A stretch of DNA of 64,000 bases from positions 35,216,001 to 35,280,000 of the forward strand of contig OX597827.1 of NCBI GenBank assembly GCA_951406725.2, written 5' to 3'. The position numbers were made by a program. The first letter of the stretch is position 1, and each line of letters opens with the position of its first letter. Below, piece after piece: positions 1 through 27,000 of this stretch. The stretch is from Octopus vulgaris (taxonomy: Eukaryota).

Positions 1-3000
1 CTCTGACCAGGGCCAGGTGCTGAAACACTGTCAGCTTATTGTGTGGGACGAGTGTACTATGGCCCACAAGGGAGCCTTCGACGCATTATACAGAACCCTT
101 CAGGATATCAGGGGTTGCGAAGCCCCCATGGGAGGTGTTATGCTTTTGCTTTCAGGTGACTTTTGGCAAACTCTTCCTGTTATCCCCAATGGCACGCGGG
201 CAGATGAGGTTCAAGCATGCCTTAAGTCGTCTCCGCTCTGGCGTCATGTCAGGTCACTGACCCTGACAATCAACATGAGGGCTCGATTGCTCGGCGACCA
301 AACGTCGGCTAACTTCGCAAGTGACATTCTGAAACTTGGCGACGGTAAAGTGCCTCTTGACGCTGATAGGGAACTGGACGTCCACCCGTTCGCAACTTCC
401 GTTTCATCTTTGACCGAACTCGCTGATAAAGTGTTTCCCCATTTAAAAGATAATTATCATGAATGGCTGTCTGAAGGCGCAGTGCTGGCTCCGAAAAACG
501 TGACCGTTACAAAATTCAACGATCACTTCCCGGTGCTCCTTTGCATAGAAATCAGTAGATACGATGTTAGATGCGAATGAATCGGTGAATTTCCCAACGG
601 AGTTCCTCAACACTTTTGACTCTTCAAGCCTATCGCCACATCTGCTCCGCCTTAAAGTTAGAACTCCGGTTATGCTCCTGCGCAATTTGGAGCCCCCCAT
701 ACTGTGCAGCGGAACACGTCTGATTGTAAAAAAATTGATGAAGTATGTTGTCGAGTCAACTATCCTATCCGGATGCAGAAAAGGTGAGGATGTATTCATT
801 CCCATGATTCCCCTTACTCTCTCGGGAACAGACATACCTTTCAACTTCAGAAGACTGCAATTCCCGCTCCGGCCCAGCTTCGCCATGTCTGTCAACAAGT
901 CCCAGGGCCAGACTCTTTCTGTGGCTGGACTTCTCTTGGAAGAGCCTTGCTTTTCCCACGGCCAGCTCTACGTTGCATGCTCCAGAGTCGGCAGCAGAGA
1001 CAGACTGTTTGCATTAACACGTTGGGGGAAGACAGGAAACATTTTCTACAACGAAGTGCTACGTATTTGCCAAGGCTGAAGTGGGTACGTTATTGCCATT
1101 CATGCATTTAACGAGGTACGCTCAAATACTTTTATTATTTTTTCCCATATCAGACAGAAGCATCAGAAAAGGTCGCCTGCCTCTTGACATTCTGTGGGTT
1201 TATGGAAGGCGTTCGCGTAGTGATAATACGATAGCAAAGAGGTGGCGATTCGTTGCAGTTGCACGATAATAATGTTGTCAGACAGCTGCTACAAACGGAC
1301 CAGCGGAAAGGCAGGTTAGGTATCGCATATTTGAGGACATATTTGCTGCCTTCGATTACCTCAAGTATGTTTATTCATAACATTAAAGTGACCAATTCAA
1401 CGGAAAGGATACTAATTTACGAAACGCATGGTGGCTACGTGTTGCGACATTCCAACTGTTGACCATTAACCTCCTGCAACTGGGAGCAATCTGTTGCTCA
1501 AACGGTTCCCTCTTAGGAAATGCTGAAATTGTTCAACTCGTTCTCTTCCTATACGTTTATATGTGCTTTATTCGCGAGTGTATGGTTCTAATCGGCACTG
1601 GGCTGAAGAGTAAGGTGTTGAAATGAGAAGAGCATTGCACGAGCGCGGTAGCTGCGGTAGGACTCTAAAAATTTTCTCAAGTGTAAGGCCTCATCTTTCA
1701 GCAGTTGAATGGTAATTTATTAAGACCCGTGCAACGGTACTACTGCTAGTACTGTAACAATATTAAGTTAGAAGTATTTAATTATGTTATACATTTCGTC
1801 AAGACAAAGATCCCATTTATAATTCCCAATATTGTACGATGGTGAGTAATTAATAATGGACCGTTTTAAATTATGCTTAATGTTCCTATGTATGTATGTA
1901 TATGAATGTGCAAGTGCGTGTGTGTTTTTGTGTGAGTGTGTGTGTGTGTGTGTGTGTGTGTGAGTGTGTGTGTGTGTGTGTAGATATGTCTTATTTACTT
2001 GTTTCAGTCAATAGACCGTGGCCATGCTGGGGCACAGTCTTGATGCATATTTATCTAATAAAAAAAAACTTAATTTCTTTCTAGATGAATATTACCAGCT
2101 CAGAATGCCATCACAGCTATCAAATGGTACACGGAGAAGTCTTGACCAAACAAAAGTATTGGATAAACTCTTACAGTAAGGAATTTATATATATATTCTT
2201 GACTTGCTTTCGGGTTTGAGACATTGGACGGCACCTTCTCGGGGTCCCAAAAGTAATACTACCTTCAAGAGGTTTCCACAAATAATATTCACTCTACTAA
2301 TTATTTCAGTTTGTTGCTTATTTTCATCTTTTGTTTGTTTCAATCATTGCCGTGCAGCCATGCTGGAGCATTACCTTGAAAGGTTTCAGTTGATCAAATC
2401 GATCCCAGTACCTTTGTTGTTTTTAAGACTGGTAGTTTTGCCGAACTGCAAAGTTACAGAAATGTAAACAAACTAACCCCACTTGTCAGGCAGCAGGAGG
2501 TTACACAAAGACATACGTACATGCGTACATACATACATACATACATACATACATACATACATACATGCTTTCATACATACATACATACATACATACATAC
2601 ATACATACATACATACATACATACATACATACACACACACATATACGCATGCATGCATACCTACATTCATACATACATACACTCATGCATGCATGCATGC
2701 ATACATACATACATACATACATACATACATGCAAAAATACCCTGTCGTTGATGCTGAAATTCCAATGAAGGAGTCCTGGATTAGGTTAGAAACCGGCTCT
2801 TTCTCTATTGGCAAGAAATCTTGAAATAAAACTGAATAATGACATACATACATACATACATACATACAATCATATATGTATACATGCATGAATGTATGCA
2901 TATATACATACGTACTATACACACACACACACACACACACACACACACACACACACACATACACACACGTGCGTGTATGTATAAGTAATGCCGCTCGAAG

Positions 3001-24000: not shown

Positions 24001-27000
24001 GATGAAGAAGAAACAATAAATCATATTGTCTCTGGCTGCCCAGTCCTGGTTAAGAAGGAATATATTCACAGACACGTCAGAGTTGGAATCTAGATACATG
24101 GGAAGCAATGCCAACACTATGGAATAACAACAGAAAAAAGATGGTATAGGTACACGCCTGAAGAGGCCACAGAAAATGAGAAACAACTATACTCTGAGAT
24201 ATGCCAATACACACAGATAGAGAAATTAAGGCCAATAGGGTGGATATAGTTGTCAGAGATCACCAAGAAAAAAATGCTTTCTAATCGATGTCTCAATACC
24301 AACAGAGGACAAAGTTTCTCTGAAAGAAACGTATAAACATTCAAAATACAACGATCTGAAAATAGAGGTAACTCGAATGTGGAACCTAAAAATAGAAACA
24401 ATTCCTATCAAAGTAGGCGCATTAGGTATGATAAAAAAAACCATTCAGACAAATACATAACAAAAATACCAGGACTTACAATTATATATAACATACAGAA
24501 AATAGCACTACTCCTGTTCCTGTTACTGTTGGTGCCCTAGGTATGATAAAAAAAAAGGGGGATGTCAGAAACATCTAGATAAGATGCCAAGAGAACCATG
24601 CCTCAGAGAAATCCAAAAGATTGTACTGATAAGTACTGCCCACATCCTTAGAAAAACCCTATCCATTTAAATGTCGGTGTTTTATTACATGAAGATATTT
24701 CGCTATTTCCCCTCCCCAAACTTTAAGTCATAATGTAACATCTCTTATCCTTAACTCGCCCCAGGGCGCTAGCGGTGTCTCACCAAGTGACTGTAACAAA
24801 CATGCAGATCAAAATAATATCGTCTGGTTTAATAGTGCCATCTAGTTTTGGGGTATCTTTAGCAGTGTCCACTCAGGGCTAAGGGCGGTTTTTTTTTCCG
24901 TTCGGGCCTCCACTTCTGAGACTTTAAAGTGAAGCCTGTGTGCTCTCTTTCCTTCTCTGACCAACCTACAAAACATTCTGGGAATACATTTTGGCATGGT
25001 CTCAAAATTTGTTTCGGACACGCTCGCCATTCACATATTTTCCCAAATTATTAAATCCAATGATCGTACAATTACTTATCCTTCTTATTGTTACTCTTTC
25101 TATTAGAGAATCTTTCCAGCATTCTCTTGTCAGGCTGATTGTTGTATCTCTAATAACTTGATTTGTTATAAAGGTTTAAAGTTGAGTTTAAGATTAATAA
25201 TCCAAATACTTAAATACTCGATAACTTACGTCTTTCAAAATCTTCAAATACACATTCAGGTCTCACTATGTTTCTATATTGCAGTCTCACCATTCTCTGA
25301 AACCGAGCCTATTTCTCCAGCAAACACAACACTGTGTCCATGTGAGTGTGAAAACGAACGACACAACCTAACCCAAAAGGAACTCGAAAAAAAGCTACTT
25401 GAGATTGTTTCGGAGTTATCACTTCTGCGAAATTCAACTTCTAAATACATCCGTTCTAAAGTTAGTATGCCAGACGCACGATTATCTTCGACATGTATTG
25501 GCGCTATCGCTGTCCTTGTCATTATCATACCATTTACAATGATAATTTCTATAGACGCCCTATATCTTTTCAAATGGCTCTACGGCGTAATTATGAGTTA
25601 GAACTATTTCAGCTCTATGTATCTGCAAATTGAATAAAAATATAGGATCTTTTCATTTCCAAGGCCTGTTTTTTCAGATTTTTCCTACTTAACCAAACAA
25701 TTTGAAACTTCGTATACTGGTAGAATGTGTCTAAAGAAAACATAATTGTAAACCAGAATGAAAACGGAATTGTAATGTCAAAGTTTAACGTTGTTTAATA
25801 ATTAGAATTTTAACCAATGGTATTCGGTCTTTCGGCTTCATATTATTTACTCCGTCTCATTAGACGTAAACGGCTATTTTGCTGACGTATTTAACATACG
25901 TGAAATGTTACCGTATTCCTTCAGTTTCTATTCACATTTTTTAAAAATATTATTAACTAACTTATATATTAAACTTATATATTATATAACTAACTTAGTT
26001 TTTGTAAATTTTCGTATATTTTTGGTGATTTTTATTCCTTACTTTATTCGTGTAACTTTTATTTCTGTAACTTTTTATCTTTGGCAATCTTTTGTATGTG
26101 TGTGTATGTATGTGTGTGTGTGTATGTATGTATGGCCGATTCAGTGTTTACATTATTTCGAGTTAAAACGAAAGATTACCTTTGCTATGTAGAAAATAAT
26201 GAGGTTGACTCAATGGAATAATGACAGTGATCGAAGATATAGACAAAATGTTTTTGGTAATCTTTCGTTTTAACTCGAAATAATGTAAACACTGAATCGG
26301 CCATACATACATACACACACACATACATAACACACATACATACACACACACACATACATAGATACATACACACACACACATACATGCATACATACATATA
26401 CACATACACCGAGTAAAAAAATTCAGTTATCTCTCTCTTTCACACATTACTCTCTCTGTCTCTTCACACACACTAACAGAAGTACTTCACTTACACAACA
26501 TACTTTCTGTCTCCCACACCCCCATCAAACACACACACATGCACACAAAACACAGACCTACGCACAGCTGTCTACGTCACAAAATAGCTTTCTACGTCAC
26601 ACTAAGATAATGCAGTTAATTATTTCAAATGAAAACAAACAATACGATTGGTTAAAATTCGCAGATTTAATGTACCCTTAAAGTTATAAAATACATTTTT
26701 CTCAAATAAACAAGTTGAAATTAGTGTTTTCTTTTGAGACACTCTACCAGTATACGAAGTTTCAAATTTAGTTAACTAGAAAAATCTGACAAAACAGGCC
26801 TTGGAAATGAAAAGATCCAAAATGTCTTCTGAAGAGTCCGCCTGACCCACCTTCATATGCATCGGTAGGCAAGCCCTATCTCACCAAGAATTACATAACC
26901 GTTTGGCTATCCTCACCTGGTGTAGCCCGCTGGTCGAAGCAGTTTAGCGGTCTATGGCTACCGGTTTATACTATCTTTAGATATTAATTGTTGATCTGTG

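What the first reader, a model, noticed from the sequence alone, without database searches (positions are those of the whole stretch)
2085..25601. Hidden 10-exon gene for a cell-surface protein: tandem glycosylated PLAT domains, mucin stalk and a single TM helix
Seen: ten GT-AG exons (2085-2175, 3449-3681, 4419-4515, 5034-5263, 8589-8676, 12642-12737, 14197-14390, 20050-20143, 21504-21818, 25285-25601) join with matching phases into a stop-free 584-aa frame. It holds two clear PLAT/LH2-like repeats, one very diverged repeat and half of a further one, and I count 17 N-x-S/T sequons before the TM. Known: PLAT domains bind lipids or membranes and are cytoplasmic in lipoxygenases, polycystin-1 and LOXHD1, but extracellular in secreted lipases. 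Inference: the sequons, extra Cys, mucin stalk, C-terminal TM and very short tail point to a type-I protein displaying a PLAT array outside the cell. I do not recognise this architecture from any named family. It could be a lineage-specific lipid-sensing, adhesion or mucus receptor.
Basis: partly seen in the sequence, partly recalled or inferred. Interest (0 to 1): 0.8.

Follow-up and report, generated by a model that had tools for sequence, protein, structure and literature searches.

The report
Octopus orphan membrane glycoprotein gene
This is a real spliced octopus gene, cut off at its start by the window and already partly annotated, that probably encodes a sugar-coated, membrane-anchored surface protein, but no test supported the claimed PLAT domains.

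Summary
All ten exons are as described: AG/GT borders, matching phases, no stop, 1755 nt. Two database proteins back the splicing. XP_036365101.1, an "uncharacterized protein" of Octopus vulgaris (P0001), is 100% identical over exon 2 and carries exons 2-5. An unnamed 607-aa record (P0002, 82% identical over exon 2) carries exons 1-7. Together they confirm 6 of 9 junctions.

The gene is therefore not fully hidden, and it is 5'-incomplete: 264 residues of P0002 lie upstream of exon 1 and outside the window. Exons 8-10 (last module piece, mucin stalk, TM) match no record. They rest on splice signals, open-frame length and codon usage.

Supported: 17 N-x-S/T sequons against 7.8±2.3 in shuffles, a Thr/Ser-rich stalk with a perfect 27-nt x 3.2 repeat, and a strong C-terminal TM.

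Not supported: PLAT. PF01477 was absent at E<=10 in 12 of 12 queries, and no PLAT-bearing relative or solved PLAT structure matched. The "repeats" are not significantly alike. Both AlphaFold models were too poor to judge (pLDDT 40 and 32). No signal peptide was seen.

Verdict: a lineage-restricted, probably surface-anchored glycoprotein of unknown fold. Modest interest.

The parts
2085..2175 (+). It is an internal exon, the C-terminal piece of an upstream module, and not the start of the gene.
   Evidence: AG/GT borders. Maps to P0002 from residue 265 (57% identity in tblastn over a stretch that runs 20 nt past the donor; 70% in alignment A3). The junction residue N is conserved in P0002.
3449..3681 (+).
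   Evidence: 100% identical to P0001 and 82% to P0002. No Pfam family at E<=10. No PDB match at E<=10.
4419..4515 (+). Exon 3 (97 nt, phase 0 to 1): short piece of module 1.
   Evidence: tblastn: 100% to P0001, 87.5% to P0002. Junctions 2 and 3 are present in both proteins.
5034..5263 (+). Exon 4 (230 nt, phase 1 to 0): long piece of module 2, with 5 sequons.
   Evidence: A phmmer search of 1.84 billion representatives returned P0001 plus two repeat-protein hits that I judged to be chance matches.
8589..8676 (+). Exon 5 (88 nt, phase 0 to 1): short piece of module 2.
   Evidence: P0002 splices on to exon 6 here. P0001 instead reads through the donor into the intron (8589-8711) and stops.
12642..12737 (+). 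Exon 6 (96 nt, phase 1 to 1): extra 32-residue piece with two Cys that opens module 3.
   Evidence: About 90% identical to P0002.
14197..14390 (+). Exon 7 (194 nt, phase 1 to 0): long piece of module 3.
   Evidence: 77% identical to P0002, which ends exactly at this exon's last residue.
20050..20143 (+). Exon 8 (94 nt, phase 0 to 1): proposed short piece of module 3. Uncorroborated.
   Evidence: It has the length and phase class of exons 1, 3 and 5, and good AG and GTAAGT signals. Two other GT donors lie within 11 nt (20133, 20137). Codon-usage score -0.12 bits/codon: the best of its three frames but not above intron background.
21504..21818 (+). Exon 9 (315 nt, phase 1 to 1): Thr/Ser/Glu/Pro-rich mucin-like stalk. 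Uncorroborated by any protein record.
   Evidence: 30 Thr, 13 Ser, 14 Glu and 7 Pro in 104 residues, and no sequon. Perfect 27-nt x 3.2 repeat. Sits in a 138-codon open frame. Codon-usage score 0.31 bits/codon, above 23 of 23 stop-free intronic frames of 90 codons or more.
25285..25601 (+). Exon 10 (317 nt including TGA): three sequons, a C-x-C-x-C cluster, a charged helix-like stretch, the TM helix (about 25497-25553) and a 15-residue tail.
   Evidence: Kyte-Doolittle 19-residue mean 2.79. Sits in a 164-codon open frame; 0.42 frames that long are expected per shuffled window. Codon score 0.11, above 22 of 23 stop-free intronic frames. No database relative among proteins of 183-2000 aa.
25633..25638 (+). 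AATAAA, 32 nt after the stop: a possible polyadenylation signal.
   Evidence: This is weak evidence, because the hexamer occurs 140 times in the window on both strands.

Best explanation
A genuine protein-coding gene known so far only from octopus. Its 5' part lies outside the window. In the window it encodes three and a half beta-rich modules of about 106-128 residues, each built from a long exon plus a short exon, with every module border in intron phase 1. The modules are dense in N-glycosylation sequons and carry conserved cysteines. If exons 8-10 belong to the same transcript, as I think likely, there follow a roughly 100-residue O-glycosylation-type Thr/Ser/Pro/Glu stalk, a small Cys cluster, one TM helix and a 15-residue tail with no signalling domain. 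The most likely mechanism is a single-pass surface glycoprotein that holds its modules away from the membrane on a stiff glycosylated stalk. It would then act by binding (adhesion, recognition, glycocalyx or co-receptor) and not by catalysis or its own signalling. Shown: exon structure, 6 of 9 junctions, sequon excess, TM, stalk composition. Inferred: that exons 8-10 are linked to the rest, extracellular orientation, glycosylation, function. The fold of the modules is unknown, and calling them PLAT is not justified by any test run here.
For: Splice signals, phases and an open frame in 10 of 10 exons. Exons 2-5 are in XP_036365101.1 (100% identical over exon 2) and exons 1-7 in P0002 (82% over exon 2); the split-codon residues N, D, D, V are conserved. 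Sequons: 17 against 7.76±2.31, with 0 of 1000 shuffles reaching 17. The same excess holds in P0002, whose residues 265-607 are orthologous to window exons 1-7: 18 against 8.8, reached by 2 of 1000 shuffles. TM score 2.79; stalk 41% Ser+Thr with a perfect coding tandem repeat. Exons 9 and 10 lie in open frames of 138 and 164 codons (1.69 and 0.42 that long expected per shuffled window). Their in-frame codon usage resembles that of the confirmed exons and exceeds 23 of 23 and 22 of 23 stop-free intronic frames. In the listing they are the only + strand open frames of 70 codons or more between exon 7 and 27000 that are not, by my reading of that listing, microsatellite, transposon-like or low-complexity sequence. 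All six module borders are phase 1; from recalled general knowledge, this symmetric 1-1 class is typical of shuffled extracellular modules in animals. Both low-confidence models are mainly beta strand.
Against: No signal peptide was seen. The 5' end is outside the window, and the first residues of P0002 are not hydrophobic (highest 19-residue mean in all of P0002 is 1.11). No record contains exons 8-10. The NCBI model ends by read-through after exon 5, and P0002 ends at exon 7. Exon 8 has a codon score no better than intron background and two competing donors. Sequon conservation between the two orthologues (by my own count 8 of 13 in exons 1-7) is about what 80% identity predicts, so it adds nothing. 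No expression data could be consulted.
Confidence: 0.55

Rival explanations
1. One reading: the modules are true but highly diverged PLAT/LH2 beta-sandwiches displayed outside the cell, forming a lipid- or membrane-sensing array.
For: By eye, exon 2 carries a T-G-D-x-G-T-D-D stretch, then alternating hydrophobic residues, a D-F-E...D-V-F stretch and a late Trp. Exon 4 has a D-V-G-R-L stretch in the matching place. This resembles the PLAT consensus as I recall it, which is a lead from memory and not a tool result. The module size of about 106-110 residues fits, and about 7-8 strands per module appear in the low-confidence models.
Against: PF01477 was not reported at E<=10 for any of 12 queries: 10 exon peptides, P0001 and P0002. 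phmmer against 1.84 billion representatives found no PLAT-bearing protein. Four PDB sequence searches gave no PLAT chain. The weak language-model neighbours were F5/8 type C, not PLAT (0.78), and the module-1 query gave no usable hit. Foldseek on the poor model gave 0 matches at E<=0.001. Modules 1 and 2 are not significantly alike.
Confidence: 0.2
2. Tail-anchored topology: there is no signal peptide, the C-terminal TM is inserted after translation, and the modules face the cytosol. The sequons and the 'mucin' stretch would then go unused.
For: The TM ends 15 residues from the C-terminus, which fits the tail-anchor rule as I recall it. No signal peptide is seen in P0002.
Against: The roughly 2.2-fold sequon excess holds in both orthologues. 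Most cysteines are conserved. A Thr/Ser/Pro stalk with coding tandem repeats and phase-1 module borders are hard to explain for a cytosolic protein. P0002 may simply lack its true start.
Confidence: 0.1
3. Exons 8-10 are not part of this gene. They would be a separate small gene or chance open frames, and the product would be a soluble or secreted modular protein ending near exon 5 or exon 7.
For: Neither database protein goes beyond exon 7. The NCBI model stops after exon 5 by read-through. Exon 10 found no relative. Splice borders chosen by eye to fit a frame are easy to find in AT-rich DNA, and both exon 9 and exon 10 also have long antisense open frames.
Against: Exon 7 ends in an open frame at a good donor, and module 3 lacks its short piece, which exon 8 supplies with the right length and phase. 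The codon usage and frame length of exons 9 and 10 exceed background. An AATAAA lies 32 nt after the stop. No other candidate coding frame lies between.
Confidence: 0.25
4. GPI-anchored instead of transmembrane: the C-terminal hydrophobic stretch is a cleaved GPI signal.
For: Small residues (S-S-T-C) lie directly before a hydrophobic stretch that runs nearly to the C-terminus.
Against: The hydrophobic region spans about 34 residues with almost no polar spacer and includes D and K. From recalled knowledge this is longer than usual for GPI signals. No predictor was available, so this is untested.
Confidence: 0.07

Closest known systems
XP_036365101.1, 'uncharacterized protein LOC118766054 [Octopus vulgaris]' (name as given by the source; P0001)
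   Same: Same locus: 100% identical over exon 2 and 95-100% in tblastn over exons 2-5, with the same three junctions.
   Different: Only 270 aa. Its first roughly 43 residues resemble a Sleeping Beauty transposase HTH (PF25787, E=6.4e-08, 32.7 bits, below the cutoff of 43) and are not in the window. Its last 12 residues are intron read-through after exon 5. It lacks exons 1 and 6-10.
P0002, an unnamed 607-aa database record
   Same: Apparent orthologue from a related genome: exons 1-7 in the same order with the same junction residues. Per-exon tblastn identity is 57-91% and exon 2 is 82% identical.
   Different: Adds 264 upstream residues absent from the window and stops at the end of exon 7. 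It has no TM and no signal peptide and no Pfam family above cutoff.
PLAT/LH2 domain (Pfam PF01477)
   Same: Module size, beta-rich prediction and a by-eye motif resemblance in exons 2 and 4 (recalled consensus).
   Different: No significant match by any profile, sequence or fold search. Known PLAT arrays such as LOXHD1 are cytosolic as far as I recall. In the one paper passage read (PMC4890752, passages only), PLAT sits in a multi-pass PKD1/REJ-type protein, not on a mucin stalk.
Membrane-tethered mucin-like (sialomucin-type) type-I glycoproteins (general class, recalled)
   Same: Ser/Thr/Pro-rich repeat-bearing stalk next to a single TM, with a very short tail and many N-glycan sequons.
   Different: The stalk is short (104 aa). 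The bulk of the protein is folded beta modules of unknown family. No SEA, EGF or other domain typical of tethered mucins was found. No signal peptide has been shown.
F5/8 type C (discoidin) / galactose-binding-like domains
   Same: Nearest language-model neighbours of P0002 (score 0.78). They are also extracellular beta-sandwiches.
   Different: The score lies in the range that, by the tool's own calibration, shuffled proteins often reach. Pfam PF00754 was not reported at E<=10. Treat as a lead only.

Membership tests
PLAT/LH2 (PF01477) | Significant match to the Pfam PLAT profile | tested here: not met
   hmmscan at E<=10: no PF01477 line for 10 of 10 exon peptides or for P0001 and P0002.
PLAT/LH2 (PF01477) | Sequence relatives that are recognised PLAT proteins or solved PLAT structures | tested here: not met
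   Searches returned only P0001 and P0002, plus two repeat-protein hits that I judged to be chance matches on reading them. The PDB searches returned no PLAT chain.
PLAT/LH2 (PF01477) | Eight-stranded beta-sandwich fold superposable on solved PLAT domains | tested here: inconclusive
AlphaFold2 mean pLDDT was 39.8 (P0001) and 31.6 (P0002 with alignment A3). The models are too poor to decide.
PLAT/LH2 (PF01477) | Lipid or membrane binding | not testable with these tools
   Needs liposome or lipid-overlay assays with the expressed modules.
Type-I mucin-like membrane glycoprotein | Cleavable N-terminal signal peptide | tested here: inconclusive
   The 5' end is outside the window. The N-terminus of P0002 has no hydrophobic core but may be incomplete.
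Type-I mucin-like membrane glycoprotein | Single TM helix near the C-terminus with a short cytoplasmic tail | tested here: met
   Exon-10 residues 71-89 score a Kyte-Doolittle mean of 2.79 and are followed by 15 residues. No other exon exceeds 1.08.
Type-I mucin-like membrane glycoprotein | Ser/Thr/Pro-rich, repeat-bearing stalk | tested here: met
   Exon 9 is 41% Ser+Thr with 7 Pro and holds a 27-nt x 3.2 repeat at 100% match. O-glycosylation itself was not tested.
Type-I mucin-like membrane glycoprotein | Ectodomain marked by an excess of N-glycosylation sequons | tested here: met
   17 against 7.76±2.31, with 0 of 1000 shuffles reaching 17. P0002 has 18 against 8.81, reached by 2 of 1000 shuffles. 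Occupancy was not tested.
Type-I mucin-like membrane glycoprotein | Modules, stalk and TM on one transcript | not testable with these tools
   Junctions 7-9 appear in no record. Only indirect support is available.
F5/8 type C (discoidin) | Match to PF00754 or PF22633 | tested here: not met
   Not reported at E<=10. The only link is a 0.78 feature score.
Tail-anchored membrane protein | Single TM close to the C-terminus and no signal peptide | tested here: inconclusive
   The TM position fits. The absence of a signal peptide cannot be established because the 5' end is missing.

The most novel reading that the evidence does not exclude
The modules are either an extracellular, heavily glycosylated offshoot of the PLAT/LH2 fold that has diverged beyond profile detection, or a beta module with no described family. 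In either case they are arrayed five or six times on a mucin stalk in a membrane protein restricted to octopods: a lineage-specific surface receptor for lipids, mucus or cell contact.
Probability: 0.15. Interest if true: 0.6.

Novelty: new variant of a known kind. Interest (0 to 1): 0.3.

Why it matters
The practical value lies in annotation. The public model of this locus appears chimeric and truncated, being a transposon-like HTH, four exons and an intron read-through. The window supports a longer gene with a stalk and a membrane anchor. Biologically it is one more lineage-restricted cephalopod gene with no detectable relatives: the one full-library scan, run with exon 4 against 1.84 billion representative proteins, found only this locus. 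If the modules proved to be extracellular PLAT domains or a new fold, that would widen the known uses of that fold and give a candidate octopus-specific surface receptor. As it stands the fold and function are unknown, and orphan genes of this kind are, from recalled general knowledge, not rare in such genomes.

Tried and rejected
(1) Pfam exon by exon and on P0001 and P0002 gave only sub-threshold noise: MIAC, DNA_pol3_delta, SPATA3, DUF6913, LRRCT_2 and NA37, all below their cutoffs.

(2) The hits P0003 (1562 aa) and P0004 (657 aa) from the representative search are highly repetitive, unrelated proteins scoring through their repeats. I read them and dropped them.

(3) AlphaFold2 was run on P0001 alone and on P0002 with a 5-row alignment. 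Both models were unusable. Foldseek on the first returned only chance-level matches such as tailspikes and acetyltransferases, best E=0.22. The second model was not searched.

(4) ESM Atlas gave a weak F5/8 type C lead for P0002 (0.78) and nothing for module 1.

Smith-Waterman against shuffles gave only N1-N2 at z=4.0 and R2-R3 at z=2.4, while R1-R2 was at z=0.8. In hhalign the best of 15 pairs reached 5.1% probability.

(6) An alignment of P0002 with the seven exon peptides (A4) misplaced exons 5 and 7, so A3 was used instead.

(8) Rfam at gathering scores and ARAGORN found nothing in the window.

(9) Literature: 0 papers hold the locus or accession name. 'octopus' plus 'PLAT domain' gave 2 irrelevant listings. 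A five-term search gave nothing matching this architecture among the 10 papers listed of 188; only passages of PMC4890752 were read from it. One search was seen as a listing only.

(10) Complex prediction, genome contigs (bacteria and archaea only) and the phage, plasmid and E. coli collections were not used, because they do not bear on an animal gene.

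
Full report
**Scope.** The joined 584-residue sequence was never assembled, searched or folded. Whole-protein analyses used two public database proteins exactly as the tools returned them (P0001, P0002).

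- One search shows an AG acceptor behind a pyrimidine tract at 10 of 10 exons and a GT donor at 9 of 9 internal exon ends.
- The exon lengths are 91, 233, 97, 230, 88, 96, 194, 94, 315 and 317 nt. They sum to 1755 nt, which is 584 codons plus TGA.
- No exon has an in-frame stop, and the six split codons read N, D, D, V, D, V.
- Independent support came from the first protein search. Exon 2 is 100% identical to XP_036365101.1, named by its source "uncharacterized protein LOC118766054 [Octopus vulgaris]" (P0001, 270 aa). It is 82% identical to an unnamed 607-aa record (P0002).
- Reading these two proteins and mapping them back with tblastn shows that P0001 contains exons 2-5 and P0002 contains exons 1-7.
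- So 6 of 9 junctions are corroborated, and the window is octopus DNA.

**2.
- The locus is already partly annotated, so it is not fully hidden. The public model looks wrong, though. Its first roughly 43 residues resemble a Sleeping Beauty transposase HTH (PF25787, E=6.4e-08, 32.7 bits, below the cutoff of 43) and do not map to the window. Its last 12 residues are read-through of the exon-5 donor (8589-8711).
- The gene is 5'-incomplete in the window. P0002 residues 1-264 precede exon 1 and have no match in the window at E<=10. The "M" at 2085 is therefore an internal residue.
- The 2 kb upstream of exon 1 is intron. It holds PIF1-type helicase fragments at 2-1079.

**3. Exons 8-10.** No record contains them. 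Exon 10 found nothing among proteins of 183-2000 aa, P0002 ends at the last residue of exon 7, and P0001 ends after exon 5. Several indirect lines favour them:
- Exons 9 and 10 lie in open frames of 138 and 164 codons. Block-shuffled windows yield on average 1.69 and 0.42 frames that long (100 shuffles).
- I scored codon usage with a table trained on exons 1-7 plus the zinc-finger frame at 49 kb. Exon 9 scores 0.31 bits/codon, above 23 of 23 stop-free intronic frames of 90 codons or more. Exon 10 scores 0.11, above 22 of 23. In both, the proposed frame is the best of three.
- Exon 8 has the length and phase class of exons 1, 3 and 5 and would complete module 3.
- An AATAAA lies 32 nt after the stop. 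This is weak, because the hexamer occurs 140 times in the window.

Two points count against exon 8. Its codon score (-0.12) is no better than intron background, and two alternative donors lie within 11 nt. I put the linkage of exons 8-10 to the gene at roughly 70-75%.

**4. Surface-protein features.**
- The sequon count of 17 is correct and is about 2.2 times the per-exon shuffle expectation (7.76±2.31; 0 of 1000 shuffles reach 17).
- P0002 shows the same excess (18 against 8.81; 2 of 1000). Its residues 265-607 are orthologous to window exons 1-7, so this is not fully independent. In its N-terminal 264 residues alone the excess is not significant (6 against 3.73; 152 of 1000).
- Exon 9 has 30 Thr, 13 Ser, 14 Glu and 7 Pro in 104 residues and no sequon. 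It contains a perfect 27-nt x 3.2 tandem repeat at 21556-21641.
- Exon 10 carries the only strong hydrophobic segment (residues 71-89, mean 2.79; no other exon exceeds 1.08), followed by 15 residues.
- All six module borders are in intron phase 1. From recalled general knowledge, this is typical of shuffled extracellular modules.
- Against the type-I reading, no signal peptide has been seen. P0002 has no segment above 1.11 and a non-hydrophobic N-terminus, although it may be incomplete.

**5. The PLAT claim.** This is the weak part of the finding.
- PF01477 was not reported at E<=10 for any of 12 queries: 10 exon peptides, P0001 and P0002.
- phmmer with exon 4 against 1.84 billion representatives returned three proteins at E<=0.001. 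One is P0001. The other two are repetitive proteins that I judged to be chance matches on reading them.
- Searching with P0002 as the query returned only itself.
- Four searches of PDB sequences gave no PLAT chain. The best hits were chance-level, at E 0.48-0.83.
- The language-model atlas put P0002 nearest to F5/8 type C clusters at 0.78, a score the tool itself flags as a lead only. It gave nothing for module 1.
- The proposed repeats are not demonstrably repeats. Smith-Waterman against 200 shuffles gave z=0.8 for module 1 against module 2 and z=2.4 for module 2 against module 3. hhalign of two-sequence profiles gave at most 5.1% probability in 15 pairs. Only the recurring exon pattern (short 88-97 nt, phase 0 to 1; long 194-233 nt, phase 1 to 0) argues for ancient duplication.
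- Both AlphaFold2 jobs failed to give usable models (mean pLDDT 39.8 and 31.6). Foldseek on the better one gave 0 matches at E<=0.001. The fold therefore remains untested, not refuted.
- By eye, exons 2 and 4 do resemble the PLAT consensus as I recall it. That is a lead from memory, and I give it about 20%.

**6. Most likely mechanism.** I think this is a single-pass surface glycoprotein. It would have five or six beta-rich, N-glycosylated modules (counting the upstream part seen in P0002) held off the membrane by an O-glycosylated stalk and anchored by one TM helix, with a tail too short to signal. It would act by binding: adhesion, recognition, glycocalyx or co-receptor. Confidence is 0.55. 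The rivals are true extracellular PLAT modules (0.2, which overlaps with this reading), exons 8-10 belonging elsewhere (0.25), a tail-anchored cytosolic orientation (0.1) and a GPI anchor (0.07).

**7. Comparison with what is known, and novelty.** The nearest records are the two octopus proteins themselves. The general kind, a mucin-stalked membrane glycoprotein, is known. The modules have no assignable family. No paper mentions the locus or the accession (0 hits). Searches for PLAT in octopus, or for this architecture, gave nothing relevant: listings only, and passages of PMC4890752, which describe PLAT in a multi-pass PKD1/REJ-type coral protein. I rate it a new variant of a known kind, of modest interest (0.3). 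It is a sound gene-model correction and a lineage-restricted gene, not a demonstrated new architecture.

**8. Left unchecked.** Expression data, the sequence upstream of the window, other cephalopod genomes, the other members of P0002's cluster (unavailable), the closed metagenome and viral collections, paper supplements, and the joined model as a whole.

Noticed in passing
window 2-1079 (+): Two adjoining open frames match the PIF1-like helicase (PF05970, E=1.8e-31) and the Pif1 2B domain (PF21530, E=4e-13). They look like a broken Helitron-type or PIF1 helicase fragment lying in the intron upstream of exon 1. The first frame runs off the window's start.
   Followed up: partly
window 49159-50628 (+): A 489-codon open frame with multiple C2H2 zinc fingers (zf-H2C2_2 E=1.8e-34, zf-C2H2 E=9.1e-27). 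It is probably an exon of a C2H2 zinc-finger gene and would be the next gene on the + strand after the finding.
   Followed up: partly
window 39056-40456 (+) and 18947-19357 (+): Reverse-transcriptase fragments (RVT_1, E=1.5e-21 and 3.6e-05). The second lies inside intron 7 of the gene. They are retrotransposon remnants.
   Followed up: partly
window 7437-7712 (-) and 15604-15870 (+): Two open frames in introns 4 and 7 translate to closely similar peptides (seen by eye in the listing). They appear to be two copies of one dispersed repeat in opposite orientation.
   Followed up: no
P0001 (XP_036365101.1) against window 3439-8711: The public gene model for this locus appears chimeric. It joins a transposase-like HTH start that is not in the window to exons 2-5, and it ends by reading through the exon-5 donor.
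   Followed up: yes
window 20133-20149 (+): Three GT donors (20133, 20137, 20144) lie within 12 nt at the end of exon 8. Only the last gives the phase that the exon-9 acceptor at 21503 needs. This is a possible alternative 5' splice site.
   Followed up: partly
whole window, e.g. 2380-3141, 3732-4180, 8705-9179, 22509-22949, 27907-29424: Dense microsatellites and low-complexity tracts produce many long spurious open frames on both strands. The window has 18 frames of 164 codons or more against 0.42 expected in shuffles. Open-frame length alone is therefore a poor guide to genes in this genome.
   Followed up: partly
window 16409-16924 (-): A 171-codon open frame in intron 7 on the opposite strand looks by eye like the C-terminal part of a retroelement integrase, but it has no Pfam match at E<=0.001.
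   Followed up: partly
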